37,333 nt of DNA from Candidatus Aenigmatarchaeota archaeon (GCA_030615165.1 JAUWZW010000003.1:1-37333); one strand, 5' to 3'; counted from the stretch's first letter, positions 23,219 through 37,333 are shown. Translations and numbers: made by a program. The notes: generated by a model not told the origin, from the sequence alone.

Positions 23219-26200
23219 GTGAAGGATTTGGTCAAGTGTAAGGATGTCGGGGGTCCAGATTGGTGCGATGAGGATGCGGAATATGTAAGGACATATAGGG
23301 AGAGGGGAGGTACTTACGTTGAGCTGAGATGTCCATCCGGTCATTTAAGTGTAATTCCTGTTTCTGAATACAGAGACAAAGTCAGGGCAGAAGAAGCAGC
23401 AAGAAGGATAACCAATGCGGATATTGCGCACTTAAGAATAGAGATAGAATCCATGGTTTTCCAGAGGTTGCCTGAGCGGCAGATGATAAATGAGGTTGTT
23501 CTTTACCTTGAGTCAACAGGAAGGTATGCAGCTTTGAAGAGGGAGGAACTTGAAAAAACAGCACGCAAGCTGTTGGATTTGGTTAGAAAGAAAATAGAAA
23601 AAGAAAGGCTGGGAGCTGTAAGTAAATACATATGTCCTGATTGCAAGAAGGTTTACCTGAATGAAAAGCCCGGGGCGGATGGCAACCTTCTTTATTACTT
23701 CTGCACAGAGTGCAAGAAAAAATTCTCTCCACGTGATATAAAGAGAAGAAAGGTTTATGGGAAGCCTGGTTGGTTGAAGAGGAGAAAGGCATACAGAGAG
23801 AAGAAAAAGGAGTTGAAAGGCACTGCAATCAAAAAGGAGTTGGAGGAGCTTGAAACCTTGGAAGAGAGAAGGCGAGCAGGTTTATTAACTGCTGATGAGC
23901 ATGAAAGGTTGTTAGAATTAAGGGGGACTGCAGCAGAAAAAAGGGAGGAATTCAAGGGTACACTCTTTGGTGCCAAGAAAGAATATAAAACTGGTGTGAG
24001 TGAGCTAAAGGAAAAGGCCAAAGCAGAGAAATGGACCAGGGTAAAATACAAGGAAGAAAAGAGAAAGCTCAAGGAGAAGTACATTAGAAGCAAAAGGGAA
24101 TATAAAGAGAAAGTGGGGAAAGAGAAAGAGAAGAGAAAGGCGCACATAGGAAAGAGGGTAACCGGTTTTATTGAAGATAAATGGGGCAAGGACGTGATGA
24201 AGGCATTTATCGTGATTCTCTTTGCTGCCCTGGGCTTTGCTATCTCAGGTGCTTTTGGAAGCATTTTATTCCTGTTCGGGTTCCTTTCATTGGCTCTTTA
24301 CTACATTTTCCCGAGCCCTGATGAAGAAACCCCGCCCCGGGAGCTGGCGAGACAACTCAAGGAAAACCCCCTGACATGGAGGATGGTGGGGTCAAGGGCC
24401 TTCCTGAGGAATCCCCACACGGTCTGGGGGTTCTTGAAAACAATCTTTAAACTGTCAACATTCATACTGTTCATTTTCGGTGTCTGGTACAGCCCGATGG
24501 TTCCGTTCAAGAATATAGTTTTGATAATACTGTGCTTTGGGGCATACTTCTCGCTCAAGATGACCTATAACACTCATATGCCGCACCAGTTCATAGAATC
24601 CGTGATAAGGTTTGGTCTGCTTGGGGCGTTCTTCATACCGTGGGTTATATTCTACGGGATTTTCCAGTCAGGTCTTCTTGCCCTGCTTGCAATGGCATTC
24701 TTCATGATTCCGCCCATAGCAGAGGACAAGCAGAATACTGAAACCTTTGCAATGTATGAAATGTTTGATAAATTCATATTTTTTGGTTTCATGCTCGTTG
24801 CGCTCATTGCATCCGGGGTTCTGCCTCTTCCATGGTTTGGTGAAGTTGGATGGAAACTTACAGGAACCCTCCAGTGGACATTCCTCTACTTCTGGGTTGT
24901 TTCCTTTGTTGCAGGATTCTTCTCTCCTGCACAGACAAGACCTGCAATGGGTTTCATAATGCTAGGCGCTGCTACCATAATCTACGGCATAGGGCCTGGG
25001 GCGCAGGAGTTCGGGACAGCTTTGCTTGGTCCCTGGTATCCTGTTATACAGAATCTTTTCAGCTCAATTGCAAAGCCGTTTGCTGAAGTATTCGGCCAGT
25101 TTGCAAACACATTCGGCAGTGCCCTGATGCTGCTTGTAAATCCTGTTGGGTATGCGCAGTCTATAATGAACGGAACGTATGCAAGGGATACCACTACAGG
25201 TTTGCAGGGCGCGTACGGCATTGAGATAGAGAGGTTTGAGGTAATGCCCATATACACAGAGAGCCCTTATGTTGTAAGTGTCATGGTTAAGAACAAGGGG
25301 GCGTTTGAGGCAAGGAATGTAATAGTTGCACTTGTCCCGAGCGTTAATGTACCCAGGGAGGAAAAGAGCTGGGTTTGGGGTGTCAAGGAGGCTGTGCTTA
25401 TTATACCGAAAGCTGCTGTGGCAGTTGGAGGTTGGAATCCTCTTAGTATTGAAGTGCACATGCCGTTTCTGAGGCCTAACATAACCATGACAAAGGAAGG
25501 GCTGGGATTTGTTGAAGAGCCTGATACGGACAGGGGCATAACACAGAAATGCATAGATGACAGGCGGTGTGTATTTGCCATAGGCAACATGACAAAGCTG
25601 CAGACAAGCCAGGCAAACTTCTACTCTGATGGTATAATGTGCCCTGCAGTGGTTAATTATGGCTTGATGACAAAGGAAAAGGCGAAAGTGCTCCCGTTCA
25701 TAGGCATGATACAGTATGACTACAACATAAGCTCGAACCTTGAGGTTGAGGCAATGAGCAAGGAGGAATGGGAAAGGCAGGTGGAGGAAATGGAGCTGCA
25801 GCCAAAGTTCAAGAAGCTTACAACCTTCACAAATGCGCCTGTCATGCTCAATCTGGACACACTGGAGCAGCCCATACTGGAGGGCTCACCATTCCATATA
25901 GCCCTGAACATTGTGTCTGCGCACAAGAAGGGGAGGGTAGTGGGCAATGCTACTGTAAGGTTGGAGATACCAACCAACTTCACGAAGGGGAAGGGAGAAG
26001 AAAACCTGCCTCCCTGCGTGCCGGATAAGATCAAACCCAAAATTATAAAGCAAGATGATACAACAACACTTCTCGAATGGAAAGGTCTCACCGAGCCTTA
26101 TGCCATATTCTGCAGCTTCCCTCCTGTGAAGGTTCCTGAAGGTCCTACAATAACATACATGGTAAGGGCTGATGCTAGTTACACATTCAGCAAGTGGGAC

Positions 26201-26617
26201 ACACTTGATACAAGGATGCAGTTCGGGGGGACAGCATGCTGCAAGAAATCCGAGGACTGTCCGATTCCCGGTCAGATATGCGACACATCAATAAATAAAT
26301 GCGGGGCTGGGGAAATTGATATTAGCGAAAGATTGTCTGAGCTTGAGGCGCGTATGAATGAACTCCAGAATGAAGTGGACCAGATAACAGAGGAGTTTGC
26401 TGATAAGCTTATAGTGGACATAAATGCATATGACCAGCTTCTGGATGAGATGGGCATCCTTAAACAGCAATACTCAGGTGATGCTGAGGTCATATCGGCT
26501 ATAGAGAATGTTGAAACCAGTGTTAATAATGCAATAAAAGTGGCATGTGAAAAATGCAGGAGATGGGGTGTGGATTGTCCATCAGACATCTGCAGTTCTG
26601 TGGGTGTTGATTTATAA
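23219..26617 (+). CDS. giant (1132 aa) polytopic membrane protein: N-terminal zinc ribbons + K/E-rich coiled coil + ~8 TM + large beta-rich domain + Cys-rich segment + C-terminal coiled coil
   Basis: The N-terminus has CKDVGG..WCDED...RCPSGH and YICPDCKK...YYFCTECKK zinc ribbons. A highly charged KEKxK block (aa ~190-300) follows. The hydrophobic core spans aa ~330-620. The long C-terminal soluble region has CARDB-like strands (YVVSVMVKNKGAFEARNVIVALVPSV). The coiled coil is EIDISERLSELEARMNELQNEVDQITEEF. Confidence 0.75.
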   Translation: MKDLVKCKDVGGPDWCDEDAEYVRTYRERGGTYVELRCPSGHLSVIPVSEYRDKVRAEEAARRITNADIAHLRIEIESMVFQRLPERQMINEVVLYLESTGRYAALKREELEKTARKLLDLVRKKIEKERLGAVSKYICPDCKKVYLNEKPGADGNLLYYFCTECKKKFSPRDIKRRKVYGKPGWLKRRKAYREKKKELKGTAIKKELEELETLEERRRAGLLTADEHERLLELRGTAAEKREEFKGTLFGAKKEYKTGVSELKEKAKAEKWTRVKYKEEKRKLKEKYIRSKREYKEKVGKEKEKRKAHIGKRVTGFIEDKWGKDVMKAFIVILFAALGFAISGAFGSILFLFGFLSLALYYIFPSPDEETPPRELARQLKENPLTWRMVGSRAFLRNPHTVWGFLKTIFKLSTFILFIFGVWYSPMVPFKNIVLIILCFGAYFSLKMTYNTHMPHQFIESVIRFGLLGAFFIPWVIFYGIFQSGLLALLAMAFFMIPPIAEDKQNTETFAMYEMFDKFIFFGFMLVALIASGVLPLPWFGEVGWKLTGTLQWTFLYFWVVSFVAGFFSPAQTRPAMGFIMLGAATIIYGIGPGAQEFGTALLGPWYPVIQNLFSSIAKPFAEVFGQFANTFGSALMLLVNPVGYAQSIMNGTYARDTTTGLQGAYGIEIERFEVMPIYTESPYVVSVMVKNKGAFEARNVIVALVPSVNVPREEKSWVWGVKEAVLIIPKAAVAVGGWNPLSIEVHMPFLRPNITMTKEGLGFVEEPDTDRGITQKCIDDRRCVFAIGNMTKLQTSQANFYSDGIMCPAVVNYGLMTKEKAKVLPFIGMIQYDYNISSNLEVEAMSKEEWERQVEEMELQPKFKKLTTFTNAPVMLNLDTLEQPILEGSPFHIALNIVSAHKKGRVVGNATVRLEIPTNFTKGKGEENLPPCVPDKIKPKIIKQDDTTTLLEWKGLTEPYAIFCSFPPVKVPEGPTITYMVRADASYTFSKWDTLDTRMQFGGTACCKKSEDCPIPGQICDTSINKCGAGEIDISERLSELEARMNELQNEVDQITEEFADKLIVDINAYDQLLDEMGILKQQYSGDAEVISAIENVETSVNNAIKVACEKCRRWGVDCPSDICSSVGVDL

Positions 26618-26707: not shown

Positions 26708-27253
26708 TCAGTTGTTCACGTCTGGAGCCAGAATCACAGCTTCACTGTTCGGCCCGGGAGGAGCAGGCGGCATTGTTCTGGCGCGTATTGTCGTATTCAG
26801 TTCTCGGATCGATTGGGCAACGCTCTGGTTGGCATTCTTCAAGTCTCTCATGTCACTCTGTAGTTCTCCCACTTGGCCTTTCATGTGGTCGAATCCGCGT
26901 TCAAGCCTTTCGACCCTTCGCTCAAAGGCGGCATCGCCCCTGGTTCTCCGGGTAGTCGGTCTCGGAGGAGCAGGCGGAGCAACAGGTGCTGGCCTGTACC
27001 AATTCCTCATGTCTTTGATTACTTCATCGGCTCCGTCGCGTAAGGTTTTGGCGCGGCCGTGTACAGCAGCAGCAAATGCTTCTGCCTTCTCGGCGTCTAT
27101 GTGCAGTTGATTCAGCACTTGCTCTTCCAGGGGTACCGAGTTTGAGCGCTGGCCGATTCCCGGTAGTGGGTCTGCGATACCTTTGTATATAACGCCCCCA
27201 ATGAAGCATGCCACCAACAACACGGCAATAAATATGGTCTTTTTCCAGTCCAT
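26708..27253 (-). CDS. N-terminally anchored coiled-coil protein with Pro-rich segments and C-terminal tail ...EAVILAPDVNN
   Basis: 181 aa. GGAGGT lies 6 nt upstream of the ATG. The TM helix is TIFIAVLLVACFIGGVIY. The coiled coil is RVERLERGFDHMKGQVGELQSDMRDLKNANQSVAQSIRELN. The last ~12 codons and 3' flank are shared with 29209..30114. Confidence 0.6.
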   Translation of the reverse strand: MDWKKTIFIAVLLVACFIGGVIYKGIADPLPGIGQRSNSVPLEEQVLNQLHIDAEKAEAFAAAVHGRAKTLRDGADEVIKDMRNWYRPAPVAPPAPPRPTTRRTRGDAAFERRVERLERGFDHMKGQVGELQSDMRDLKNANQSVAQSIRELNTTIRARTMPPAPPGPNSEAVILAPDVNN

Positions 27254-27342
27254 AACGGACCTCCTTTCATCTGTCTAAACCTTAAATTCCTTTTAGCTTG
27301 TCGCTTGTTTCAGCAGGCAGAAGGCACAACAGCAAAAATACT

Positions 27343-28272
27343 TTAGCCCTGAGTCGGCTGCTTCAGCAGCTTTTCAACCACTTCAGAAACTACCAGCCAT
27401 CTTCCCTTGTCACCAGGTTGTTTCTTGATGACTTTGTCACCGGCAAACCTGTCACGTAGTTGACGTGATTCTTGATTTGACAGATTGAACTTGTCTCTTA
27501 CCTGACTTCTGTTGAATGTTTCTTTATCTTTGAGGTATTCCAATTTCTTCCTGTAATCATCGTCAATGACAGGTTTTTCCTCTTGGGCAACGGTGGTAGG
27601 GGCAGCAGTTGTTGCCGATTCTGGTTCTGGCTCAGCAGGCTCGGGTACGGGTTGCTCGGTTTCGGCAACTGGTTCCTCAGCCTCTGCAGTGGTCTCTGCA
27701 GGCTCTTCCTTTGGCTGCTGCTCAATCTCGGTCTTGATAACCTTTAGCGTTCCCAAATCCAGAAGGGTCTGAAGAATTTCAGGGGTCATTATGCATTCCC
27801 TGCCTTTGTGTTCAACAAATGAACCGAGAACACCAAGTTTCTCCAGCTTGGTTAGAACCGAATCGGCTTCTGCACGTTTGATGCCCAATGATTTAAGCAC
27901 CTTATCATACAGGGAACCCACACCCCAGTTCTTGCCCTTGCCACCGGCAACAACAATGCTGATGATTTTGAGCATTTCTTCGGAAATCTGGGTTGTTTCA
28001 GCAGCTGGAGGGGGAGTAGGTTCAGCGGGTTCGGTGGGTTCAGGTGTTTCAGCGGGCTCATGGGATTCGGGTGTTTCAGGCGCAGTTACTGTCTGGAGCC
28101 CCTCAACTTTTGAAGTGTCAAGCTCCTCCTGAGGCTGGTCAACTGCAGGAGGAGGTTCTTCGATGCCCTGCTGCCGGGGTTGCTTGTCCGGTTGGGACTT
28201 TGACCCCGCGACCAAGATGCCCGCTACTATTAATAACGCGAGTAATACTAAACAAAGTGTTCCTAAATCCAT
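27343..28272 (-). CDS. membrane-tethered protein with Pro/Glu-rich linkers and two small globular (possibly winged-helix-like) modules
   Basis: 309 aa with an N-terminal TM (LCLVLLALLIVAGILVAG). The linkers are PETPESHEPAETPEPTEPAEPTPPP and EPAETTAEAEEPVAETEQPVPEPAEPEPE. GAGGTGA lies 4 nt upstream of the ATG. Confidence 0.55.
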   Translation of the reverse strand: MDLGTLCLVLLALLIVAGILVAGSKSQPDKQPRQQGIEEPPPAVDQPQEELDTSKVEGLQTVTAPETPESHEPAETPEPTEPAEPTPPPAAETTQISEEMLKIISIVVAGGKGKNWGVGSLYDKVLKSLGIKRAEADSVLTKLEKLGVLGSFVEHKGRECIMTPEILQTLLDLGTLKVIKTEIEQQPKEEPAETTAEAEEPVAETEQPVPEPAEPEPESATTAAPTTVAQEEKPVIDDDYRKKLEYLKDKETFNRSQVRDKFNLSNQESRQLRDRFAGDKVIKKQPGDKGRWLVVSEVVEKLLKQPTQG

Positions 28273-28299
28273 ATATCACCTCACTTTCTACAATCTTTT

Positions 28300-28338
28300 T
28301 CTCTATTCTCAAGTCTCATTTCTCTATTCTCAAGTCTC
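28300..28338. repeat. tandem direct repeat, 2 x TCTCTATTCTCAAGTCTC with 21-nt period, in the promoter region of 27343..28272
   Basis: Read directly from the sequence. On the minus strand the repeats lie 30-65 nt upstream of the ATG at 28272. This is a candidate operator or promoter element. Confidence 0.6.
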
Positions 28339-28725
28339 TTTCAACGCTTGAAGCTTATTTTGGGCTCTTGTGCACCAATCAGGTGTTAGGAAAAGAGCGC
28401 GGTGGGCCCTCCAGCCTTTTCCAGTTCGCCCGCGTCTCCATATTACATGCCAGAAGACAACACCATTGCCGCAATCCTTCTCTTCAGGAATATCATCTTC
28501 CAGCCACACCTTAGGATTTGTGAGCTCGCAGGTGACATTGCTTTTTCTGCCATCCTTGCGAAATTTTGGATCATCCGGCGGGTCAATCACTGCAAATACT
28601 TTTCCATGCTTTTTCAGTATGTCGGAAAGATACCCAAAATAGACTTCATAACCTTCATCTGGCTGTGGCGCTTTCACATCAAAACTACCTCCTTTCCTGC
28701 TAAAACAAGCAAACAAGAACAACAA
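28330..28725 (-). CDS. hypothetical protein (weakly supported)
   Basis: 131-aa ORF with no recognisable motif. The start is uncertain. The coding call rests only on ORF length and being in the same orientation as its neighbours. Confidence 0.3.
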   Translation of the reverse strand: MLFLFACFSRKGGSFDVKAPQPDEGYEVYFGYLSDILKKHGKVFAVIDPPDDPKFRKDGRKSNVTCELTNPKVWLEDDIPEEKDCGNGVVFWHVIWRRGRTGKGWRAHRALFLTPDWCTRAQNKLQALKET

Positions 28726-29208: not shown

Positions 29209-30114
29209 TTAGTTGTTCACATCAGGGGACAGTATTACTACTTCAGGCTCGGCACTTTCAGGCTCCGGCTCTGCAGCAGCTGGCTCCTCAGTGCTGGCAG
29301 GCGGCTCGGTGCCGAAGTAAGCGTTGATTGCTTCAGTAGCATTCCTTGGCCCAACCTCGGCTTCCCAGTCAACTATCTCACCCCTGCCTGTTCCAACCGC
29401 AGTTTCACGGGTAACCCTCAGATCAGCTTCAAGCTCCAGATAACGGTTCTGAAGGGCGTTCATTGCCCTTGTGACACCGCTGGCAGAACCAAGGGGGTCG
29501 CCCTTGATAGCCTTAACAAGTTCTGAAACCTGAACCTCTACCTGTTTGGCAGCGATCTTGGCTTCCCATTCCTGGATTTTGCCCGTAAGTTCATTAACCT
29601 TGTTGGTAGCAATAACCAGCTGACTCTTTGCCTCTTCTATCTCTCTGCTAAGCCCCTCAAGAAGGATTTCCTTCTCTTTTATTTCTGTATCCAGGGCTTT
29701 GCAGCGGTCGATCCGGAGGAGGGCATCCTGGTTAACCTGCTCCCAGGTATAGGATTTGTTGTTGACTGTGATGGAATTGCCAGGCTGGCTGTTGGCAAGA
29801 ACCGTCTTGACTTTCTTCAGTATGGCCTCATTGCCTGCCTTGCGCTCTTTGAGCTCTTCAACATCTTCTGCGATAAGATTTGCCTTGATTTCACCCCTGC
29901 TGATATTCACATGATAGTTGCGAATTTTTCCTCGGCATTTCTCAGCTTCATCTTTGGCTATATCCACAAGGGTGTTAAGAGAGGCCTTATCGTCAAGATA
30001 ATCCGCAACACGTTTGCCCCTTGCATTGATGTGAGCACCCAGGTTGGGGACAATTGTCCAACCTAATACAGCAACTATGGCGACAGCCACTACAATAATC
30101 CAAAAAGTTTTCAT
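29209..30114 (-). CDS. N-terminally anchored coiled-coil protein, PspA/IM30/ESCRT-III-like (tentative), with acidic/Pro tail ending ...VVILSPDVNN
   Basis: The probable start is MKTFW (GAGGTG 6 nt upstream). The track ORF start at 30123 appears to be a GTG. The TM is WIIVVAVAIVAVLGWTIV. Long amphipathic helices (LIAEDVEELKERKAGNEAILKK...; ...GSASGVTRAMNALQNRYLELEADLRVTRE) resemble the PspA helix pattern. It is about 65% identical to 31037..31858. Confidence 0.6.
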   Translation of the reverse strand: MKTFWIIVVAVAIVAVLGWTIVPNLGAHINARGKRVADYLDDKASLNTLVDIAKDEAEKCRGKIRNYHVNISRGEIKANLIAEDVEELKERKAGNEAILKKVKTVLANSQPGNSITVNNKSYTWEQVNQDALLRIDRCKALDTEIKEKEILLEGLSREIEEAKSQLVIATNKVNELTGKIQEWEAKIAAKQVEVQVSELVKAIKGDPLGSASGVTRAMNALQNRYLELEADLRVTRETAVGTGRGEIVDWEAEVGPRNATEAINAYFGTEPPASTEEPAAAEPEPESAEPEVVILSPDVNN

Positions 30115-30120
30115 AATACA

Positions 30121-30245
30121 CACCTCTTTTCTTCACAAAAAGGGTTAACATTTTTGCAAGCTTCCTCAATAATCTGTTCTGTCTGTTTGGGGGATTTTCT
30201 GAATAACCTCCTTTCTGCCAGGGACCCATGCCAGGCAGACAGAAA
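30121..30245. repeat. promoter/5'UTR block copy 1, duplicated at 31863..31987 with near identity
   Basis: About 115 nt are almost identical: ...TTCACAAAAAGGGTTAACATTTTTGCAAGCTTCCTCAATAATCTGTTCTGTCTGTTTGGGGGATTTTCTGAATAACCTCCTTTCT..GGGACCCATGCCAGGCAGACAGAAA. It contains an inverted repeat TCTGCC...GGCAGA. Confidence 0.7.
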
Positions 30246-30299: not shown

Positions 30300-30923
30300 T
30301 TAATGTTTATGAACCAAAGACCGCCTTGGTTCCGGGAATTTCTTTCCCGTAACATTCTCATAGAGCCTGGCAAGATTCTTCTCAAGATTCCTCATGTGTC
30401 TGGGGTAAAGGGAAATCACCTTTATACCGTGCTTTCTATAAAGCCATTTCTTTCCATTCATTTTCTCCACGTAGTTCATATCATCATCAGCCAAGCCCCA
30501 GAACTCAATGAAAACCTTTTCTCTGGGCAGATAAAAGTCCGGTCTGAGTTCTATGCCGTCAAGAATCAAAGGGTGCTCATACCTGTATGTGATGCCCCGC
30601 TTGTCAAGCAGTTCTGCTATCCGTTTCTCTGACCTGCTTCTGACCCTGACTCCTGAGTTGGTTCTTACGCTTCTTCCGTTGTATAATGCCCATGTATCAA
30701 GTTTGTCCAAAAGCAGGGAGAGATAGAATTTTGCTCTGATAAGCCAGTCCAAAAACCGGTTTCCTGTCCTTTTAAATTGGGGTCTTTTGGTGCCCCCGCG
30801 GATGAATGAGAAGATGGCCTTGTCCAGTCTGCTGAATTCCCTGCCAGGTGTATTGATAACCGCATCGTCAAGTCTGTCAAGTACCCACATTATTATCCTC
30901 CTTTTCGGTTTTTGCTTATTCAC
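30300..30923 (-). CDS. hypothetical protein, possible DUF559/Vsr-like (PD-(D/E)xK-type) nuclease fold
   Basis: 207 aa. RPDFYLPREKVFIEFWG resembles the RxDF...IE.DG core of endonuclease-like DUF559 domains. This is weak. Confidence 0.4.
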   Translation of the reverse strand: MNKQKPKRRIIMWVLDRLDDAVINTPGREFSRLDKAIFSFIRGGTKRPQFKRTGNRFLDWLIRAKFYLSLLLDKLDTWALYNGRSVRTNSGVRVRSRSEKRIAELLDKRGITYRYEHPLILDGIELRPDFYLPREKVFIEFWGLADDDMNYVEKMNGKKWLYRKHGIKVISLYPRHMRNLEKNLARLYENVTGKKFPEPRRSLVHKH

Positions 30924-31036: not shown

Positions 31037-31858
31037 TCATTCGCTTTGCCCTGAGAAGTAGGCGTCAATTGCTTCAGCAGCTTTCCTTGGTGCGATATCG
31101 CCTTCCCAGTCAACGATGTTATCCCTGCCTGTTCCGACCGCGGTTTCACGGGCAACCCTTACATTGGCTTCAAGCTCCAGATAGCGGTCCTGAAGGGCGT
31201 TCATTGCCCTTGTAATCCCGCTGGTAGAACCAAGGGGGTCGCCCTTGATAGCCTTAACAAGTTCTGAAATCTCGACCTCTACCTCTTTGACAGCGATCTT
31301 GATTTCCCATTCCTGGATTTTTCCCGTCAGCTGGTTGGTTTTATCAATAGCAATAACCATCTGCCTCTCCGCATCTTCTATCTCTCTGTTGAGCCCATCA
31401 AGAAGGGTTTCCTTCTCTTTTATTTCGGTATCCAGGGTTTTGCAGCGGTCGATCCGGAGGAGGGCATCCTGGTTAACCTGCTCCCAGGTATAGGATTTGT
31501 TGTTGACTGTGATGGTGTCGCCAGGCTGGTTTTCCTTAAGAGCCTTCCCTGCTTTCTTGAGTATGGCCTCGTTGCCTGCCTTGCGCTCCTTGAGCTCTTC
31601 AACATCTTCTGCGATAAGATTTGCCTTGATTCTGCACCTGCTGATGTTCATCTGGTACTCAGATATCCTTTCAAGGCTTTTCTGGACTTCCTTTTTAGCA
31701 ATGTCAATGAGCTCCTGCAGAGACGCCTTCTTGTCAAGGTACTCCGCAGCACGCTCACCCTTTGCACTGATGTGAGCGCCCAGGTTGGGGATGACTGCAG
31801 AGGCAATGGCACCAAGTATGCAGACAGCCACCACGATAATTAGTATTTTTCTAAACAT
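31037..31858 (-). CDS. PspA/IM30/ESCRT-III-like (tentative) membrane-anchored coiled-coil protein, tandem paralog of 29209..30114
   Basis: The probable start is MFRKILIIVVAV (GAGGTG 4 nt upstream). Many stretches of about 75 nt are identical to the paralog at nucleotide level (e.g. 31441-31516 matches 29700-29775). The C-terminus differs (...AYFSGQSE). Confidence 0.6.
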   Translation of the reverse strand: MFRKILIIVVAVCILGAIASAVIPNLGAHISAKGERAAEYLDKKASLQELIDIAKKEVQKSLERISEYQMNISRCRIKANLIAEDVEELKERKAGNEAILKKAGKALKENQPGDTITVNNKSYTWEQVNQDALLRIDRCKTLDTEIKEKETLLDGLNREIEDAERQMVIAIDKTNQLTGKIQEWEIKIAVKEVEVEISELVKAIKGDPLGSTSGITRAMNALQDRYLELEANVRVARETAVGTGRDNIVDWEGDIAPRKAAEAIDAYFSGQSE

Positions 31859-31862
31859 AATA

Positions 31863-31987
31863 CACCTCTGTTTCTTCACAAAAAGGTTAACATTTTTGCA
31901 AGCTTCCTCAATAATCTGTTCTGTCTGTTTGGGGGATTTTCTGAATAACCTCCTTTCTACCCGGGACCCATGCCAGGCAGACAGAAA
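31863..31987. repeat. promoter/5'UTR block copy 2
   Basis: See 30121..30245. Confidence 0.7.
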
Positions 31988-32055
31988 ACTGACCCGGCCT
32001 GCGTTAAGGAAACAACAGAATTACATGAATCCTCTGTTAACAATAACCGTTTATA

Positions 32056-32727
32056 TCAGCCAATAAGACTTCCTGTAATCATCAGGTTTGCAAGCACAAG
32101 CAGGACACCCAGAGATAAAATGCTCCAGGCAATGGCCCACCCAAGGGCATGGACCTTTGTCATGCTCTGCAACTGCTCTGCATCCGTGTCCCCGCTCTGC
32201 CTGTGCCAGAGCCTTTTCCTGTAATGGCTTATAACAACAAAGGAATAGAGCACAGAACACAACCCAATAAATCTTGCGATAAAGTTTTCAATTGCGCCCG
32301 TAAGGAATATCCCGGCAGCAATAAGCGCTATTCCCGTGGCAATCGAGGAGAAGAACATCCTGGAATCCCTGACCCAGAGGAGCGTAAGGAGCAGGACCAT
32401 CAGGCCCATGAATGTGAGCGCATGGCCGGATGCATTTGTGTACGTCAGGTAGAAAAAGAAGAACCCGATAAGGATGCTGCCCAGGTATCCTGCATTCAGT
32501 ATTAGAAATGTGTTTCCTCCAAGGGTTTCTGTAATCCAGTATCCCCTTACTTTGTCGAATACTATCCCCTTTACCCTGCCTCCTGTAAGCACTGCTGCAA
32601 GGGCATGGCTGGCCTCATGGTAGAGGATGGTGAGCAGCCTTATGGGATAGGTGAAAATACTCCTCCAGCTCATCCATACAAGGATGAAGAGAAGGAGCAT
32701 GAGGATTAATTCTCTGAAATTATCCAT
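32056..32727 (-). CDS. membrane-embedded HExxH zinc metallopeptidase-like protein (site-2-protease/M50-like, tentative)
   Basis: LTILYHEASHALAAVLTGG places HExxH inside a TM helix. There are 5-6 TM segments. The likely start is MDNFRE (GGAGGTG 6 nt upstream). Confidence 0.45.
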   Translation of the reverse strand: MDNFRELILMLLLFILVWMSWRSIFTYPIRLLTILYHEASHALAAVLTGGRVKGIVFDKVRGYWITETLGGNTFLILNAGYLGSILIGFFFFYLTYTNASGHALTFMGLMVLLLTLLWVRDSRMFFSSIATGIALIAAGIFLTGAIENFIARFIGLCSVLYSFVVISHYRKRLWHRQSGDTDAEQLQSMTKVHALGWAIAWSILSLGVLLVLANLMITGSLIG

Positions 32728-32771
32728 GGTAACACCTCCTTTCACAAAACAAGGATTGCCATAACATTTTT

Positions 32772-33845
32772 CTAACGCTTCGGTTTTTGCTTGACCTCAA
32801 AACCTTTCCAAACTTGATGGGGAAGTGGGGATTGTTTTTTCTCTGGCCGGGACTTCTTTGGTTCTGACTTCTCTGGCCGGGATTTTTTGCCGCTCTTTTC
32901 TTCATTTTTTTTCAGGATACTCTCAATTCTCTCATATGCTTTACTATCCTTCTTTTGTTCCTTAAGGGCGGCTCTGAGCTCCGGCTCCACCTCGGTGCCT
33001 AAGTCCACCAGTATGAAGGTGGCATGGTCCTGAATAGCACCGGAACCCTTCAAGCTGTCATTAATGATCCTCCTAACTGGTGACCTGTCTGCCGGGTTAG
33101 TCTGGATGAGTGACTTGTCAGCATATAAACTTAATTTCCTTTCTTCAGGATCGCTGTTTTTTGCATAGTAGCTTTCCATAATCACCTTCAGTACAGGGAC
33201 AGCCGCCTTTGCATTGGGGCCTATCTCTCCTAGGGCTTTTATTGCTGCCAGGCGCACATGAATCTCAGAATCACCCACGGCTGTTTTTACAAGCGCAGGA
33301 ACAGCAGGAGCAGATGCAGGGCCTATCTTTCCCAGGGCTTCTGCAGCAGCTAATCGTATATTACCATATCTGTCAGACAGTTTGGTGTTGAGTGTCTTGA
33401 CTGCATCCTTAGCCCTGGATCCCATCTTCCCTATGGCATTGATAACTGCTACCTGCAGCACCTTCGGTTGCGAATCACCAAGGCTTTTAACAAGCGCGCT
33501 TACTGCTTCTTTTGTATCCTCTGCATCCGGACCTATTTCACCAAGTATTTCAGCAGCAGCAATGCGTATATCAGCGCTTTTACTGCCTAGCTGCTTTATC
33601 AGCGGCTTTACAGCAGGCCTGCCTATCTTTACCAGGGATTTTTGAACGTTCTTTTTTATTCCGGTATCCTTGTATTTCTCGCAGAGGAGTTTGACAAGCT
33701 CTTCAGCGACATCTGCTTCTGTTGGTATGTTGGGGTTTGCCTCGGTATTGGCCTTTTCAGGCACATAGCCCATCGCGATGTTACAGCTGTACAGGATCGG
33801 CAGCAGAACTATTAGTATTCTTATTGTCTTGTTCAGGTGTTTCAT
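32772..33845 (-). CDS. secreted/lipo HEAT-repeat (PBS-lyase-type) protein with a K-rich C-terminal tail
   Basis: The signal peptide is MKHLNKTIRILIVLLPILYSCNIAMG. Repeats are IRIAAAEILGEIGPDA, IRLAAAEALGKIGPAS and VRLAAIKALGEIGPNA. The tail is KKSRPEKSEPKKSRPEKKQ. Confidence 0.65.
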   Translation of the reverse strand: MKHLNKTIRILIVLLPILYSCNIAMGYVPEKANTEANPNIPTEADVAEELVKLLCEKYKDTGIKKNVQKSLVKIGRPAVKPLIKQLGSKSADIRIAAAEILGEIGPDAEDTKEAVSALVKSLGDSQPKVLQVAVINAIGKMGSRAKDAVKTLNTKLSDRYGNIRLAAAEALGKIGPASAPAVPALVKTAVGDSEIHVRLAAIKALGEIGPNAKAAVPVLKVIMESYYAKNSDPEERKLSLYADKSLIQTNPADRSPVRRIINDSLKGSGAIQDHATFILVDLGTEVEPELRAALKEQKKDSKAYERIESILKKNEEKSGKKSRPEKSEPKKSRPEKKQSPLPHQVWKGFEVKQKPKR

Positions 33846-33906
33846 TTATTCGCCTCCTTTCGTTCAAAAACAGGGAAGGGGGCGACCCGAGTAAGCATCG
33901 CCCCGG

Positions 33907-34992
33907 TTAGGTTAAACTGTCCAAACCATCTGGATACCACTTGTCCAGGTCTTTCAGAGAAACACTGGGCCTGGAATCCTGAAGGGCCACCAGGAAGTCC
34001 TGCATGCAGACAGGTCTTACCTGGTTCCTGGCCAGATGGGTGCTGCGCAATAGGGCTGCACGCCTTGCCTTCTGGGCAAGGCCCTTTACCAGGTCTGCAC
34101 CGGAGAAGAGCCTTGTTCTTTCAGCGAGCAGGTCGTAATCAATGTCATCTGTTGTTGGTACTCCATTCATGCTTTTCACGAGAATCTCTTGTCTCTCATG
34201 GATGAGAGGAAGGCCGACAAATATCACCTCGTCGAACCTGCCGGGTCTTTTCAGAGCCGCCCTCATGATTTCTGGTTTGTTGGATGTGCCAACCATCATG
34301 AGCATGTTGTTGTTGCCGTTCCGGCCAAGAAACCCGTCTGTCTCATTCAGGAACTGTGAATTGACTGACTTCTGTATCTCGGAATTTGATTCACGGAGAA
34401 ATCCCTCAATCTCATTGATTATTATCACCACACGCTTGTAACGCCTTACAACCCTGAACAGCTCCCGGACACATTTTACTGATGCCTCCTGGCTCTTCCT
34501 GATTATGTCGGCTGTTGTTATCTCAAAGACCACCATACTGACCTCGTTTGCAACAGCCTTGGCGAGCATGCTCTTGCCGTTGCCGGGCGGACCGACAAGG
34601 AGTATTCCGCCGCCTTCCACAATCTTCAGGAGCCTGGCCTTGTCCCTGTGCTGTAATGGTGTCAGGGCCCGGATTTTAATTTCCTGTTTGGGTTTGTTAA
34701 GGCCGACCACGTCACTAAACCTGACCCTTTGGATTTCGGATTTGTTAACAGGTCTGAACATGGGCTCGTTCGCAGCAACCATTTTGCTTTTTGCAGGAGC
34801 TTTCTTTTTCCTGCTGCGCATGGCAGAAGCTGTCCTTTTACAGCCCCATATGATGAAATCAACAATATGCTCGGCAGTGGTAAAGAGCAGGGACATTGCA
34901 AAGTCAGCAAGGCCCCTGCCCCTTTTGGCCCACTTTCTTCTGGAAGACCCCGGCAATGGTAATGCAAAACCGGATTTTCTGTGCCTTTTCAT
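33907..34992 (-). CDS. AAA+ ATPase (classic AAA clade) with an atypical Walker B (IIINEIE)
   Basis: Walker A is GPPGNGKS. Sensor-1 is TSN. The Arg-finger region is ALKRPGRFDEV. The C-terminal helical lid is FSGADLVKGLAQKA. Walker B reads VVIIINEIEG, with Asn where Asp is expected. It overlaps the upstream gene by 4 nt. Confidence 0.75.
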   Translation of the reverse strand: MKRHRKSGFALPLPGSSRRKWAKRGRGLADFAMSLLFTTAEHIVDFIIWGCKRTASAMRSRKKKAPAKSKMVAANEPMFRPVNKSEIQRVRFSDVVGLNKPKQEIKIRALTPLQHRDKARLLKIVEGGGILLVGPPGNGKSMLAKAVANEVSMVVFEITTADIIRKSQEASVKCVRELFRVVRRYKRVVIIINEIEGFLRESNSEIQKSVNSQFLNETDGFLGRNGNNNMLMMVGTSNKPEIMRAALKRPGRFDEVIFVGLPLIHERQEILVKSMNGVPTTDDIDYDLLAERTRLFSGADLVKGLAQKARRAALLRSTHLARNQVRPVCMQDFLVALQDSRPSVSLKDLDKWYPDGLDSLT

Positions 34993-35663
34993 TGGGGGCC
35001 TCCTTTATTAACATCTACATTCTTCCAGTCCTCATCATTTATCAAGCCCTCTCTGAGCTGCTTCTCCAGCTGTTCCAGTCGCTTTTTGTCTGCATAATCC
35101 CTGATGAGCTTTTCAGATACCTTCACGAGTTTCACCATCTCTGGATTTTCCGTGATTGTACCTGTTGTCTTTACCATGGCAATGACCTCGCGGAGCTTCA
35201 TGTCCTGGTTGGCCAGGGAATCGTTAAAGGACTCCAGCTGTTTCAGCTGCTCTTTCATGTTGCTTATCTTCTTCCTGAGGATGTTGCATTCCTCGGAGTT
35301 CGGGTCATTCTTCTCATAGTTAATGCTGACCGTGAGGGAGTTTTCTTCCAGCTGGATTCTGTCCTTCACACTCTCTATCTGCTCCTTTATCATCTTCCGC
35401 ATTTCGCCCATCCGCATGATTATGACTCCTATGTGCTCAGCAGAGGGATTGTCCAGTATGCCGGGGTTCCCTGGGTTCCCGGGGTTTTCCTGGGGTGCCT
35501 CATGAGACTGCCATTTCTCATACAGTATGTCGTACGTCGGCCGCAGATAAATGCCAAGGGCAAAGCCCACGATAAGAACGACTACCAGGGCAAACAATGA
35601 TCCGAAAAGTCCGTTCTTTTTTGGAACCTTGGAGGGCTGCTGAATTGTCTGTTTATTCTCCAT
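34989..35663 (-). CDS. N-terminally anchored coiled-coil protein
   Basis: 224 aa. AGGAG lies 8 nt upstream of the ATG. The TM is LFGSLFALVVVLIVGFALGIYL. It has a (NPG)3 motif, then long heptad-like segments (IKEQIESVKDRIQLEEN...KISNMKEQLKQLESFNDSLANQDMKLRE). Confidence 0.55.
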   Translation of the reverse strand: MENKQTIQQPSKVPKKNGLFGSLFALVVVLIVGFALGIYLRPTYDILYEKWQSHEAPQENPGNPGNPGILDNPSAEHIGVIIMRMGEMRKMIKEQIESVKDRIQLEENSLTVSINYEKNDPNSEECNILRKKISNMKEQLKQLESFNDSLANQDMKLREVIAMVKTTGTITENPEMVKLVKVSEKLIRDYADKKRLEQLEKQLREGLINDEDWKNVDVNKGGPQ

Positions 35664-35703: not shown

Positions 35704-37326
35704 TTACAAATCTCTGGTCTGGAAAAGCTCACAAACCCTTAAGTTACATACTTTAAAGGCTGAAAACATCACACCTATGAAGGCAGATGTGCTGTATATC
35801 AGCAGGGATACCGTATGTATCCACCAGTACCTGAAGTCCAGGATTGAACCAGAAGCATATTTCACAAGGGATATTCCGCTGTTTAGCAGGGTGTTTCTGA
35901 TAATGGGCTCTGCAAGACCTAAAAAGAAGACTGAAGAAATACCTGCCAGCCCCACTATCACAATAACCATCATCACATATATCCAGATTATCCCTGACCT
36001 GCTTGCACCTGCAGACCTCAGTATTCCCATGCGGAACATCCCGGAACGGGTGTTCATCCATATTATCACTAGGATGTTCACCGTGCCGACTATGAGGGTA
36101 CCCAGCACAACAATAAACACGAAGGAAAACAGGGACCTTCCGAGCCTTATCAGGCCCTCCTGTTGAGCGAGGGAATCCTCGGTCTCATAGCCCATTCCCC
36201 TGAGATGTGCAACCACAGGCCGCACCTTATCAATGTTCTTCACATAGACATTGCAGGCTATCCTGCCCTGGCTCTTGTAGATTTCGTGCGGATGTATGAA
36301 CCCCCTGTCAGTGTCATAGTCCAGCAGGCCTTCTTTCCAGAGGGATATCCTATTTGCCAGGTCTACCGGGATATAGCCCCTGTCCCCGGAAACAACCCCT
36401 GCGATGCGCGTCTCTATGTTAAGGCTTGGTTCAAAGAGGAGCTGTTTGTCCTTCTTGAACAGCAGGGTGACGGGCTTGCCGACAATAAACCGCGGTTCAA
36501 TACCCAGCTCCTTTAGTGCTTCTTCCGGCAGGACAGCCTGGTATTCAGAGGTGTCGGACAGCCATCCGCCTGCCTTCAGCCCACCGTTCATGAACATTGT
36601 CATGTCATTGGCATAGCTGCTCATCAGGGTGAAGTCCTTTGATGCACTGGTGCCACTGTCCTGTTGGGCCGGAACCAGGGATGCCTTTGCCGTGATATTC
36701 GGGCATACATTAATGAACATGCGCTCGCTTCTCAGTATGGGAAGGAGCTTCTCATCCATCTTGCCGTCACTGGATATGGCGTCTGTCACATTGTAGCATA
36801 CAATCATCCTGCTCTTTAAGGAGAAAAGCGGCTTCACAGAAAATCCGTCCAGGTATCCCAGCACCTTCTGGTAGTTTGTAACATCCGGGAGCATGATTTC
36901 CGCCATAACCGGTAGCATCTTCCTGGAGGGACCGAAGAAGAAGGCGGGGTTGGAGGCAACAAAATGCCTGTTGATAACCATCAGACCGGGAGGCAGGGAA
37001 TCACTTTTCACTCTTTTCAGAAGGATTTTATGGTGACCCAGGGTGAAGCGGCTCACATCAGAGTAGTATGGGCAGTCGTGATAGTTGATTAATATCTCAT
37101 TGGATTCCATGGAACCGTGATTCCTGGCCCATCCAAAGGGCAGGCGGGTTATTGAGGGGTCGTTGCATATAACAGGTGTGAATATCTGCTCCCTGCTGTA
37201 ATTGCTGAATTTTATTGTTTTGTTAGGGAGCATCTCCAGCTCCACAAGCTCGAGGGTAAAGGGCTCAATACTCATGCGTTTCAGGTATTTTCCCACCTCG
37301 TTCTTGGACATGTGAAGTATTGCCAT
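35704..37326 (-). CDS. FtsX/MacB-like ABC-transporter permease, probably 5'-partial (extends past the window end)
   Basis: The C-terminal FtsX-type domain has 3 TM helices and the GILRSAGASRSGI motif. A roughly 380-aa N-terminal soluble region has no TM1 in-window. The frame stays open to position 37333. Confidence 0.6.
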   Translation of the reverse strand: MAILHMSKNEVGKYLKRMSIEPFTLELVELEMLPNKTIKFSNYSREQIFTPVICNDPSITRLPFGWARNHGSMESNEILINYHDCPYYSDVSRFTLGHHKILLKRVKSDSLPPGLMVINRHFVASNPAFFFGPSRKMLPVMAEIMLPDVTNYQKVLGYLDGFSVKPLFSLKSRMIVCYNVTDAISSDGKMDEKLLPILRSERMFINVCPNITAKASLVPAQQDSGTSASKDFTLMSSYANDMTMFMNGGLKAGGWLSDTSEYQAVLPEEALKELGIEPRFIVGKPVTLLFKKDKQLLFEPSLNIETRIAGVVSGDRGYIPVDLANRISLWKEGLLDYDTDRGFIHPHEIYKSQGRIACNVYVKNIDKVRPVVAHLRGMGYETEDSLAQQEGLIRLGRSLFSFVFIVVLGTLIVGTVNILVIIWMNTRSGMFRMGILRSAGASRSGIIWIYVMMVIVIVGLAGISSVFFLGLAEPIIRNTLLNSGISLVKYASGSILDFRYWWIHTVSLLIYSTSAFIGVMFSAFKVCNLRVCELFQTRDL

Positions 37327-37333
37327 ACAGAAA

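What the first reader, a model, noticed from the sequence alone, without database searches (positions are those of the whole stretch)
31037..35663. PspA-like genes co-oriented with an AAA+ ATPase, a coiled-coil membrane protein, an intramembrane HExxH peptidase and a HEAT-repeat lipoprotein
On the minus strand the order is FtsX-like permease, coiled-coil anchor protein, AAA ATPase (4-nt overlap), HEAT-repeat secreted protein, HExxH membrane peptidase, PspA-like, DUF559-like, PspA-like, then two more anchored proteins. ESCRT-III/PspA-family polymers are typically remodelled by a partner ATPase. Here that role could be played by an AAA ATPase of the classic clade (RPGRFD Arg fingers). This could be a membrane stress or remodelling module.
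Basis: inference. Interest (0 to 1): 0.62.

Follow-up and report, generated by a model that had tools for sequence, protein, structure and literature searches.

The report
Archaeal PspA-like, AAA envelope gene cluster
This is a real, conserved gene cluster of a DPANN-type archaeon that links an unusual AAA ATPase, a membrane protease and a nuclease-fold protein to membrane-anchored coiled-coil proteins that faintly resemble PspA but probably sit outside the cell, so the proposed ESCRT-like "polymer plus remodelling ATPase" pair is unlikely.

Summary
The genes are present as described. On the minus strand lie a FtsX-like permease (cut by the contig end), a coiled-coil anchor protein, an AAA ATPase (4-nt overlap), a HEAT lipoprotein, an M50B HExxH peptidase, and two paralogous about 290-aa proteins flanking a PD-(D/E)XK-fold protein.

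Gene order is conserved in six independent loci (AAA identity 45-87%), one of them from a Candidatus Aenigmatarchaeota MAG. AAA and the hairpin protein co-occur in 6 of 6 loci.

The "PspA-like" label is weak but not noise. No member reaches the Pfam cut-off, yet 28 of 122 relatives hit PspA_IM30 below threshold. hhalign scores 32 against at most 18 in controls. Foldseek's top hit is VIPP1 (E 0.02).

The Vps4-type mechanism is not supported:
- The AAA has no MIT domain, only a single N-terminal helix.
- It has no pore-loop aromatic in any of 16 orthologues.
- Its Walker B is never the canonical DE (NE or DD instead).
- It is equidistant from CDC48, PAN, FtsH and CdvC.

Three natural fusions (nuclease-fold domain, then TM, then hairpin) place the hairpin outside the membrane, away from the cytoplasmic AAA.

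Best reading: a trans-membrane envelope device built around an ABC/FtsX engine, external coiled-coil hairpins, and cytoplasmic AAA, M50B and nuclease-fold control. Its function is unknown.

The parts
35704..37333 (-). C-terminal half of a giant FtsX/MacB-type ABC permease, truncated by the contig end
   Evidence: Pfam FtsX scores 23.1 bits over residues 405-519. It is 90% identical to residues 617-1157 of the 1157-aa L001 protein. The reading frame is open to the window end. In relatives it is preceded by ABC_tran and VWA genes.
34989..35663 (-). 224-aa N-terminally anchored coiled-coil protein, translationally coupled to the AAA gene
   Evidence: No family hit. It has a basic N-terminal tail followed by a TM segment. 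Homologues sit in the same position in L001, L007, L003 and L086. It overlaps the AAA start by 4 nt.
33907..34992 (-). Divergent single-domain classical AAA ATPase: no MIT domain, no pore-loop aromatic, Walker B is INE
   Evidence: PF00004 E 1e-25; Vps4_C 25.3 bits. NCBIfam is equidistant between clades. Orthologue alignment A4, motif positions, AF2 model and Foldseek give the details.
32772..33845 (-). Secreted HEAT-repeat lipoprotein; an accessory, mobile component of the cluster
   Evidence: HEAT_2 E 9e-32. Signal peptide or lipobox in all three orthologues. Present only in the window, L005 and L020, at different positions.
32056..32745 (-). Peptidase_M50B-like intramembrane HExxH metallopeptidase
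   Evidence: PF13398 E 3.5e-37. The HEA[SG]H motif is conserved in four orthologues. Present in the window, L001, L003, L007, L086 and L020.
31037..31879 (-). Hairpin protein copy 1 (280 aa): N-terminal TM anchor plus a long coiled-coil hairpin; remote PspA/Vipp1 similarity
   Evidence: No Pfam hit. About 70% identical to copy 2.
30300..30923 (-). 207-aa cytoplasmic protein: conserved N-terminal region plus a PD-(D/E)XK nuclease-fold domain with an E..PDF..IEFWG motif (Lys replaced by Trp)
   Evidence: PADLOC HEAT_CxxC_PD-DEXK 72.5 bits, PDC-S69 65.5 bits. Weak T7 endonuclease I and Vsr-like matches. Alignment A2. Fused to the hairpin protein in P0140, P0158 and P0161.
29209..30123 (-). Hairpin protein copy 2 (304 aa), with an acidic/Pro-rich tail ending VILSPDVNN
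26708..28725 (-). Three downstream co-oriented genes (131, 309 and 181 aa; the last two N-terminally anchored) that probably extend the module
   Evidence: ORFs. Homologues lie downstream of the cluster in L001 and L020. The 181-aa protein shares the C-terminal VILxPDVNN motif with hairpin copy 2.

Best explanation
This is a conserved operon-like envelope module of a DPANN-type archaeon. It is not a Vps4/ESCRT-III-style pair.

Outside the membrane sit:
- the type-II-anchored coiled-coil hairpin proteins (remote PspA/Vipp1-like, with a conserved beta-hairpin tip);
- the 224-aa coiled-coil protein;
- the HEAT lipoprotein;
- in relatives, a VWA protein and the large extracytoplasmic domains of a MacB/FtsX-type ABC permease.

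At the cytoplasmic face sit:
- the ABC ATPase;
- a membrane-proximal AAA that is probably a nucleotide-dependent switch or scaffold rather than a threading motor;
- a PD-(D/E)XK-fold protein that contacts the hairpin protein's anchor, and is covalently fused to it in some lineages.

The M50B protease lies in the membrane.

Inferred mechanism: the ABC/FtsX engine and the external hairpins work by mechanotransmission, as FtsEX-EnvC or MacAB do. AAA, M50B and the nuclease-fold protein act on the anchors from inside. They would control assembly or turnover, or carry out S2P-like intramembrane cleavage that signals to or releases the cytoplasmic domain.

Shown: gene content, synteny, motif states and the fusions. 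Inferred: topology, the physical contacts and every functional step.
For: Synteny. The order VWA - ABC - FtsX - CC - AAA - M50B - 207 - hairpin occurs in L001, L003 and L007. The same core occurs in L086, L005 and L020.

Host. A pelota equivalog scores 256.6 bits against a cut-off of 177.65. L008 comes from a Candidatus Aenigmatarchaeota MAG.

Topology.
- Fusions P0140, P0158 and P0161 have an about 200-aa nuclease-fold domain with no signal peptide, then a basic linker, one TM, then the hairpin.
- Family N-termini are 'M[KR]x' followed by a hydrophobic stretch, and the flanking charge favours N-in.
- All HEAT orthologues carry a signal peptide or lipobox. VWA and CC proteins are N-in anchored. 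Neighbouring genes encode lipoproteins.

AAA. No MIT domain. No pore-loop aromatic in 16 of 16 orthologues, and Walker B is NE or DD.

Against: - Topology is predicted, not measured.
- The locus L005 has AAA-HEAT-207-hairpin without an adjacent ABC/FtsX, so the ABC link is not obligatory.
- L086 lacks the 207-aa gene.
- No hydrolase or channel partner of the EnvC or MacA type was identified.
- The recurrent weak PspA/Vipp1 signal fits a membrane-remodelling protein at least as well as an EnvC-like adaptor.
- Nothing here shows proteolysis, ATPase activity or nuclease activity.
Confidence: 0.4

Rival explanations
1. The hairpin proteins are membrane-anchored PspA/ESCRT-III-superfamily polymers on the cytoplasmic face, and the adjacent AAA is their Vps4-like remodelling or disassembly ATPase. 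The cluster would then be a membrane stress or remodelling module.
For: - AAA and hairpin genes are neighbours in 6 of 6 loci.
- PspA_IM30 is by far the commonest weak Pfam hit: 28 of 122 members, best E 5e-8, against at most 3 members for any other coiled-coil family.
- hhalign scores 32.1 (probability 35%), against 16.2 for reversed and at most 18.3 for shuffled controls.
- Foldseek's top hits are VIPP1.
- The Vps4_C Pfam hit is above its cut-off.
- There is published precedent for TM-anchored PspA/Snf7 homologues next to AAA+ and ABC genes (PMC11237479), and for MIT-less Vps4-like ATPases next to weak PspA-like genes in haloarchaea (PMC10936438).
Against: - No MIT or other N-domain.
- No pore-loop aromatic and no canonical Walker B in any orthologue.
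- No clade affinity to Vps4 or CdvC.
- No family member reaches the PspA_IM30 cut-off.
- A true TM replaces the amphipathic helix alpha0.
- The fusions and flanking charges put the hairpin outside the cell.
- The Vps4_C match covers only the RPSVSxxDLxKW motif, which p97-D2 also shares.
Confidence: 0.17
2. An anti-virus defence or abortive-infection system. A surface-exposed coiled-coil sensor would be coupled through the membrane to a PD-(D/E)XK nuclease effector, with the AAA and M50B acting as activator or regulator.
For: - The nuclease-fold domain belongs to families held in PADLOC: HEAT_CxxC_PD-DEXK 72.5 bits, and the phage-defence candidates PDC-S69 and PDC-S68.
- There are weak AAA hits to IetA and TRIP13.
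- The nuclease domain is fused to the sensor-like hairpin.
- The hairpin protein diverges fast relative to the AAA in L086: 23% against 71% identity.
Against: - No complete known defence system matches.
- The AAA hits to IetA are generic AAA similarity (48 bits or less).
- The catalytic Lys of the E-x-K motif is replaced by an invariant Trp.
- The neighbours are envelope genes (ABC/FtsX, VWA, lipoproteins), not typical defence-island genes.
- There are no close copies on viral contigs.
Confidence: 0.15
3. A split FtsH-like membrane protein quality-control protease. The membrane-proximal AAA would feed substrates to the M50B metallopeptidase, and the coiled-coil proteins would be substrates or HflK/C-like modulators.
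For: - The AAA gene is immediately followed by M50B in four loci.
- The AAA scores 131.9 bits against the FtsH family model.
- The AAA has a conserved basic and hydrophobic N-terminal helix.
- An SPFH gene lies nearby in the window.
Against: - A processive unfoldase would be expected to keep the pore-loop aromatic and a DE Walker B. Both are missing.
- M50B is absent from L005.
- The SPFH gene is on the other strand and is not part of the conserved order.
Confidence: 0.13

Closest known systems
PspA/Vipp1(IM30)/ESCRT-III with Vps4/CdvC (archaeal Cdv and ESCRT systems; PMC8281802, PMC10936438)
   Same: - Long alpha-helical hairpin followed by shorter helices.
- Weak, reproducible profile and fold similarity to PspA/Vipp1.
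- An adjacent classical-clade AAA ATPase with SRH arginine fingers and a Vps4_C-type C-terminal motif.
   Different: - A TM anchor replaces amphipathic helix alpha0.
- The hairpin is predicted to lie outside the cell.
- A beta-hairpin is inserted at the hairpin tip.
- No family threshold is met.
- The AAA has no MIT domain, no pore-loop aromatic and a non-canonical Walker B.
- There are no wH, CdvA or ESCRT-II-like partners in the conserved core.
Bacterial operons with TM-anchored PspA/Snf7 homologues, an AAA+ ATPase, an ABC ATPase and a permease (Ravi et al. 2024, PMC11237479; for example OGG56892.1)
   Same: A membrane-anchored divergent PspA/Snf7-like protein lies next to a classical AAA and an ABC ATPase plus permease. 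Function was inferred only from gene context.
   Different: - Those AAA proteins have two domains (an inactive one plus an active one); this one has a single domain.
- Those operons carry PBPB/OmpA solute-binding proteins.
- This cluster carries M50B, a PD-(D/E)XK-fold protein, HEAT and VWA, and it is archaeal.
- Homology between the two anchored families was not tested.
FtsEX-EnvC/PcsB/RipC and MacAB (type VII ABC mechanotransmission systems)
   Same: - An ABC ATPase plus a FtsX-fold permease with large external domains is encoded next to extracytoplasmic coiled-coil hairpin proteins.
- MacA is likewise N-in anchored.
   Different: - The hairpin protein has no LytM, CHAP or NlpC/P60 hydrolase domain, and no lipoyl or beta-barrel MFP domain.
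- An AAA ATPase, M50B and a nuclease-fold protein have no counterpart in those systems.
- The similarity is structural only.
Site-2-protease regulated intramembrane proteolysis, and FtsH
   Same: A type-II single-pass membrane protein is encoded beside an M50-superfamily intramembrane HExxH peptidase and an AAA ATPase.
   Different: - M50B is an uncharacterised sister family of M50.
- No site-1 protease, anti-sigma factor or sigma factor is present.
- The AAA is not fused to a protease and lacks threading pore loops.
PADLOC HEAT_CxxC_PD-DEXK, PDC-S69 and PDC-S68 nuclease-fold families
   Same: [quoted passage not shown] A HEAT-repeat protein is encoded in the same cluster.
   Different: - Here HEAT is a separate, secreted lipoprotein and is not fused.
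- There is no CxxC module.
- The N-terminal 85 residues are specific to this family.

Membership tests
PspA/IM30 (PF04012), ESCRT-III superfamily | Sequence match to the family model above the curated cut-off | tested here: not met
   The 304-aa copy scores 16.3 bits against a cut-off of 33.9. The 280-aa copy has no hit. Of 122 relatives, 28 hit below threshold, best E 5e-8.
PspA/IM30 (PF04012), ESCRT-III superfamily | Profile-profile or fold similarity across the alpha1-alpha5 ESCRT-III fold | tested here: inconclusive
PspA/IM30 (PF04012), ESCRT-III superfamily | Peripheral cytoplasmic protein with an N-terminal amphipathic helix alpha0 | tested here: not met
   The family has a fully hydrophobic 19-23-residue TM right after 'M[KR]x'. 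Fusions place the hairpin opposite a cytoplasmic domain. Topology is predicted, not measured.
PspA/IM30 (PF04012), ESCRT-III superfamily | Forms homo-oligomeric rings, rods or filaments on membranes | not testable with these tools
   This needs expression of the ectodomain and electron microscopy.
Vps4/CdvC | N-terminal MIT three-helix bundle | tested here: not met
   AF2 on 16 orthologues predicts a single helix 18-59 (pLDDT 55-67), then disorder 60-90. The conserved motif SRRKWAxRGRAxADF..LLF..AEHIVDF is not MIT-like.
Vps4/CdvC | Pore-loop-1 aromatic-hydrophobic pair (K-W/Y-x-G) used to thread ESCRT-III | tested here: not met
   The window has RKSQEAS where p97-D2 has MWFGESE. No aromatic occurs in any of 16 orthologues.
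Vps4/CdvC | Specific sequence affinity to the family (equivalog score or clade placement) | tested here: not met
   CdvC scores 128.6 bits against a cut-off of 650. That is no better than CDC48 135.9, PAN 133.2 or FtsH 131.9. Foldseek puts p97-D2, katanin, FIGNL1 and M. sedula Vps4 all at 1e-20 to 1e-22. A formal phylogeny was not run.
Vps4/CdvC | C-terminal Vps4_C element | tested here: met
   PF09336 scores 25.3 bits, above the cut-off of 21.3, over residues 326-351. The same RPSVSxxDLxKW stretch also aligns to p97-D2, so it is not discriminating.
Classical AAA clade | Walker A, sensor-1 Asn and two SRH arginine fingers | tested here: met
   GPPGNGKS at 134-141. N238, R249 and R252 are invariant.
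Classical AAA clade | Canonical Walker B (hhhhDE) | tested here: not met
   IIINE in the window and 7 other orthologues. hhhDD in the remaining 8. DE never occurs.
Peptidase_M50B (PF13398) | Family model above cut-off, and an HExxH motif in a TM helix | tested here: met
   128.5 bits against a cut-off of 26. HEASH or HEAGH in four orthologues.
MacB/FtsX type VII ABC transporter | FtsX 4-TM domain, large extracytoplasmic domain and an adjacent ABC ATPase gene | tested here: inconclusive
   The window copy scores 23.1 bits against a cut-off of 25.5 and is truncated. Orthologues carry PF02687 and are preceded by ABC_tran genes. The ABC gene lies beyond the window end.
PD-(D/E)XK nuclease fold (Vsr/DUF559-like) | Sequence match to a PD-(D/E)XK family model | tested here: met
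   PADLOC HEAT_CxxC_PD-DEXK 72.5 bits over profile positions 181-280; PDC-S69 65.5 bits. Pfam Vsr reaches only E 0.03-0.16, and there is no DUF559 hit.
PD-(D/E)XK nuclease fold (Vsr/DUF559-like) | Complete catalytic E...D...(D/E)xK constellation | tested here: not met
   E99, D129 and E140 are invariant. The Lys position is an invariant Trp (IEFWG).
FtsEX-EnvC-type adaptor | Coiled-coil hairpin carrying a hydrolase or activator domain and binding the FtsX external domain | tested here: not met

The most novel reading that the evidence does not exclude
The hairpin family may be a genuine but highly divergent branch of the PspA/Vipp1/ESCRT-III superfamily that works on the outer face of the archaeal membrane. 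It would be tethered by a TM helix. Through that helix it would be coupled to a cytoplasmic nuclease-fold protein, a non-threading AAA ring and an intramembrane protease. That would make it an 'inside-out' ESCRT-III-like membrane or contact apparatus in host-dependent DPANN archaea, possibly used at the cell-cell interface.
Probability: 0.12. Interest if true: 0.85.

Novelty: new variant of a known kind. Interest (0 to 1): 0.5.

Why it matters
PspA/ESCRT-III proteins and their ATPases are the one membrane-remodelling system traced back to the last universal ancestor, and how prokaryotic members without Vps4 are regulated remains open. This cluster shows a rare lineage, mostly from uncultured archaea. 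The AAA family has only 16 clusters among 5.8 billion proteins, and the hairpin family has 123 representatives at 50% identity. In this lineage a PspA-like hairpin is permanently TM-anchored and is genetically locked to four other components:
- an AAA that has lost the hallmarks of a threading motor;
- an intramembrane protease;
- a nuclease-fold protein;
- an ABC/FtsX engine.

If the predicted outside topology holds, it would extend the superfamily to the extracytoplasmic face, or show convergent use of the same hairpin architecture there. It would also give a concrete candidate for surface machinery in DPANN archaea. If the topology does not hold, the cluster would be a new MIT-less AAA/PspA pairing in archaea.

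Tried and rejected
1. Exact-sequence cluster look-up of 8 window proteins gave no names or organism.
2. A word-indexed homology search with the hairpin protein found only 6 hits. The exhaustive HMMER search was needed.
3. A profile search of the hairpin family against PDB sequences returned generic coiled coils (GCN4, gp26), with Vipp1 only at E 0.03.
5. I tested whether the nearest non-orthologous AAA relatives (about 600-aa two-domain proteins) are PspA-linked. They are not: their neighbours are urease and ABC genes, or HECT and BEACH genes.
It returned only close enterobacterial relatives, so the PspA profile used in hhalign is shallow.
7. Literature searches for the PADLOC model name HEAT_CxxC_PD-DEXK found nothing.
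8. Viral contigs hold no close copy of the 207-aa family. The hairpin alignment was too divergent for a pattern scan.
9. A hydrophobic segment in the N-terminal region of fusion P0140 was considered as a second TM helix, which would invert the topology argument. It was rejected because the equivalent segment in the other family members is charged and amphipathic.
10. No tRNA genes were found. No formal AAA phylogeny was run, because reference sequences of Vps4, katanin, FtsH and PAN could not be fetched.

Full report
**What is in the sequence**

The minus strand from 37333 down to 26708 carries eleven co-oriented genes separated by short gaps (-4 to 483 nt). In order they are:
- A FtsX-like permease, 35704-37333. 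Pfam FtsX scores 23.1 bits, just below the cut-off of 25.5. The frame is open to the contig end. It aligns to residues 617-1157 of a 1157-aa orthologue.
- A 224-aa anchored coiled-coil protein, 34989-35663.
- A 361-aa AAA ATPase, 33907-34992, overlapping the previous gene by ATGA.
- A HEAT-repeat protein, 32772-33845. HEAT_2 E 9e-32; signal peptide with an LYSC lipobox.
- A Peptidase_M50B protein, 32056-32745. E 3.5e-37; HEASH motif.
- A 280-aa hairpin protein, 31037-31879.
- A 207-aa protein, 30300-30923.
- A 304-aa paralogue of the hairpin protein, 29209-30123.
- Three more small genes.

Two labels are generous. The 280-aa protein has no Pfam hit, and the 304-aa copy scores only 16.3 bits on PspA_IM30 (cut-off 33.9). 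The 207-aa protein hits neither DUF559 nor Vsr.

**Host**

The window encodes a pelota equivalog (TIGR00111, 256.6 bits against a cut-off of 177.65) and a DUF7504/KaiC-like protein. One orthologous locus (L007 = L008) lies on a contig of a Candidatus Aenigmatarchaeota MAG. The organism is therefore an archaeon, probably DPANN-type.

**Synteny**

The AAA has only 15 orthologous clusters among 5.8 billion proteins. The next relatives are about 600-aa two-domain CDC48-like proteins at about 31% identity. Contigs carrying the orthologues show the same neighbourhood:

| Locus | AAA identity | Gene order |
|---|---|---|
| L001 | 87% | VWA - ABC ATPase - giant FtsX permease - CC - AAA - M50B - hairpin - 207 - hairpin |
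| L086 | 71% | FtsX - CC - AAA - M50B - hairpin (no 207) |
| L007 | 52% | VWA - ABC - FtsX - CC - AAA - M50B - 207 - hairpin |
| L003 | 50% | VWA - ABC - FtsX - CC - AAA - M50B - 207 - hairpin |
| L005 | 45% | AAA - HEAT - 207 - hairpin (no ABC/FtsX or M50B nearby) |

Partial loci add M50B - 207 - hairpin - HEAT (L020) and 207 - hairpin (L024).

The AAA and the hairpin protein are thus neighbours in 6 of 6 loci. M50B and the 207-aa gene are each present in 5 of 6. HEAT is an accessory, position-variable component.

**The 'PspA-like' proteins**

An exhaustive profile search found 123 representatives (E <= 1e-3). Almost all are 260-310 aa and match end to end.

The AF2 model predicts the following (pLDDT 80-93 over the hairpin, low elsewhere):
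- an N-terminal TM helix;
- a long antiparallel hairpin, helices 49-110 and 127-208;
- a small beta-hairpin at the tip, 117-126;
- a further helix, 215-233.

The tip is the best-conserved part of the family: I/V120, G122, Y125, T126, D133, A134, R137, C141.

Evidence for PspA kinship is weak but consistent:
- PspA_IM30 is the only recurrent Pfam hit. It appears in 10 of 50 and 18 of 72 members, best E 5e-8, all below threshold. No other coiled-coil family is hit by more than 3 members.
- hhalign against an E. coli-type PspA alignment gives probability 35% and score 32.1 for family positions 154-239 against PspA 99-185. A reversed PspA scores 16.2, and 20 column-shuffled controls score at most 18.3.
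- Foldseek's two best PDB hits are VIPP1 (E 0.02-0.03), and several more Vipp1/PspA entries are in the top 30. Nothing reaches 1e-3.

I conclude that 'remote PspA/Vipp1-like' is the best available description, but family membership is not established.

**Topology**

Family members begin 'M[KR]x' and go straight into a 19-23-residue fully hydrophobic segment. That is a signal-anchor pattern. The flanking-charge difference favours N-in, C-out.

More tellingly, three representatives are natural fusions (P0140, P0158 and P0161, 500-504 aa). P0140 was confirmed as one continuous ORF in L022. Each has a 207-family nuclease-fold domain of about 200 aa with no signal peptide, then a basic linker, one TM, then the hairpin. 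With a single TM between them, the two domains must lie on opposite sides of the membrane. A large N-terminal domain without a signal peptide stays in the cytoplasm, so the hairpin is extracytoplasmic.

The rest of the cluster agrees:
- All three HEAT orthologues have a signal peptide or lipobox.
- The VWA and CC proteins are N-in anchored.
- Neighbouring genes encode lipoproteins.

All of this is inference from standard topology rules, not measurement.

**The AAA**

The AAA is a classical-clade member. Walker A is GPPGNGKS, the sensor-1 residue is N238, and the arginine fingers R249 and R252 are invariant. It cannot be assigned to the Vps4/meiotic clade:
- NCBIfam scores are CDC48 135.9, PAN 133.2, FtsH 131.9 and CdvC 128.6 bits.
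- Foldseek gives p97-D2, katanin, FIGNL1 and archaeal Vps4 all at 1e-20 to 1e-22.
- The Vps4_C hit (25.3 bits) covers only the RPSVSxxDLxKW motif, which also aligns to p97-D2.

There is no MIT domain. The first 90 residues form one conserved basic and hydrophobic helix (18-59) followed by a disordered linker. This helix probably mediates a membrane-proximal contact.

All 16 orthologues lack the pore-loop-1 aromatic residue: RKSQEAS sits where p97 has MWFGESE. None has a DE Walker B; eight have NE and eight have DD. These are not the features of a processive substrate-threading unfoldase such as Vps4.

**The 207-aa protein**

Its C-terminal half matches the nuclease part of the PADLOC model HEAT_CxxC_PD-DEXK (72.5 bits). 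It also matches the candidates PDC-S69 and PDC-S68. It aligns weakly to T7 endonuclease I and to a Vsr-like homing endonuclease. The residues E99, D129 (in PDF) and E140 are invariant, but the E-x-K lysine is an invariant tryptophan (IEFWG).

The same domain is widespread in other contexts:
- about 300-aa proteins with repeated N-terminal modules;
- a UvrD-like helicase;
- 140-aa TM-anchored bacterial proteins.

**Interpretation**

The module spans the membrane.
- Outside: hairpin proteins, CC protein, HEAT lipoprotein, VWA protein and the FtsX external domains.
- In the membrane: M50B.
- Inside: ABC ATPase, AAA and the nuclease-fold protein, which is tied to the hairpin anchor.

The closest working analogies are type VII ABC mechanotransmission systems (FtsEX-EnvC, PcsB or RipC; MacAB). 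In those systems an external coiled-coil hairpin is driven by FtsX. On the cytoplasmic side, the analogies are S2P-type intramembrane proteolysis and FtsH-like control of single-pass proteins. I rate this composite reading at about 0.4. Its functional steps are all inferred.

It has literature precedent: TM-anchored PspA/Snf7 with AAA+ and ABC genes in bacteria (PMC11237479), and MIT-less Vps4-like ATPases beside weak PspA-like genes in haloarchaea (PMC10936438). It conflicts with the predicted topology and with the AAA motif states.

A defence-system reading rates about 0.15, and a split FtsH-like protease about 0.13. Both remain possible.

**Novelty**

The components belong to known superfamilies, and a loosely similar bacterial neighbourhood has been noted in the literature. 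I found no description of this archaeal cluster. What sets it apart is its single-domain, pore-loop-less AAA, its M50B protease, its nuclease-fold protein and the 207-hairpin fusions. I class it as a new variant of a known kind, of moderate interest (0.5).

The most novel reading still open is a true ESCRT-III-superfamily protein acting on the outer face of a DPANN membrane. I give it about 0.12 probability, and it would be of high interest if true.

Noticed in passing
window 29209-30123 and 26708-27253: Two otherwise unrelated anchored proteins end in the same C-terminal motif after a Pro/Glu-rich tail: ...EPEVVILSPDVNN and ...SEAVILAPDVNN. A relative, P0126, ends TLILDVNEPNLN. This may be a shared docking or sorting signal.
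   Followed up: no
P0140 (L022:855-2366), P0158, P0161: Natural fusions of the 207-aa nuclease-fold family to the hairpin family with one TM between them. They were used here for the topology argument. They also imply that the two proteins contact each other physically in the unfused systems.
   Followed up: partly
window 17393-26617 (+ strand): A converging block holds a 378-aa protein, an SPFH/Band-7 protein (19415-20377, E 2.5e-28), two paralogous 256-aa and 354-aa proteins, a CarboxypepD_reg protein (22230-23177) and a 1132-aa protein. The 1132-aa protein also lies next to the cluster in L001 (78% identity). SPFH-PspA/ESCRT links are discussed in PMC10936438.
   Followed up: no
window 15859-16905; 1578-2132; 9113-11599: A pelota equivalog and a DUF7504/KaiC-like gene mark the contig as archaeal. 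The same contig also encodes an 828-aa ankyrin-repeat protein.
   Followed up: partly
L005:16697-21002: In the GCA_030692005.1 relative, MerR, DUF4325, a 647-aa protein, bAvd, GIY-YIG and a reverse transcriptase lie 4-9 kb downstream of the cluster. This looks like a diversity-generating retroelement.
   Followed up: no
L026, L027, L037, L045-L048, L053; L014; L009-L011: The IEFWG-type PD-(D/E)XK domain, with Lys replaced by Trp, is widespread. It occurs in about 300-aa proteins with repeated N-terminal 'GWI..KN.KW.LT..GK' modules, is inserted in a UvrD-like helicase, and occurs in 140-aa TM-anchored bacterial proteins. It has no Pfam family.
   Followed up: partly
AAA alignment A4 (window 33907-34992, residues 190-194): The AAA family splits evenly into a Walker B 'NE' form (8 of 16, including the window) and a 'DD' form (8 of 16). 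The canonical DE never occurs.
   Followed up: partly
L086:3039-6020: This locus has an AAA 71% identical to the window's, but its hairpin protein is only about 23% identical and it has no 207-aa gene. Here the external hairpin evolves much faster than AAA and M50B.
   Followed up: partly
window 27343-28272: A 309-aa protein has an N-terminal TM, a long acidic/Pro-rich linker and two C-terminal globular segments that by eye resemble winged-helix domains. It has no Pfam hit. A homologue lies downstream of the cluster in L001 (44% identity).
   Followed up: no
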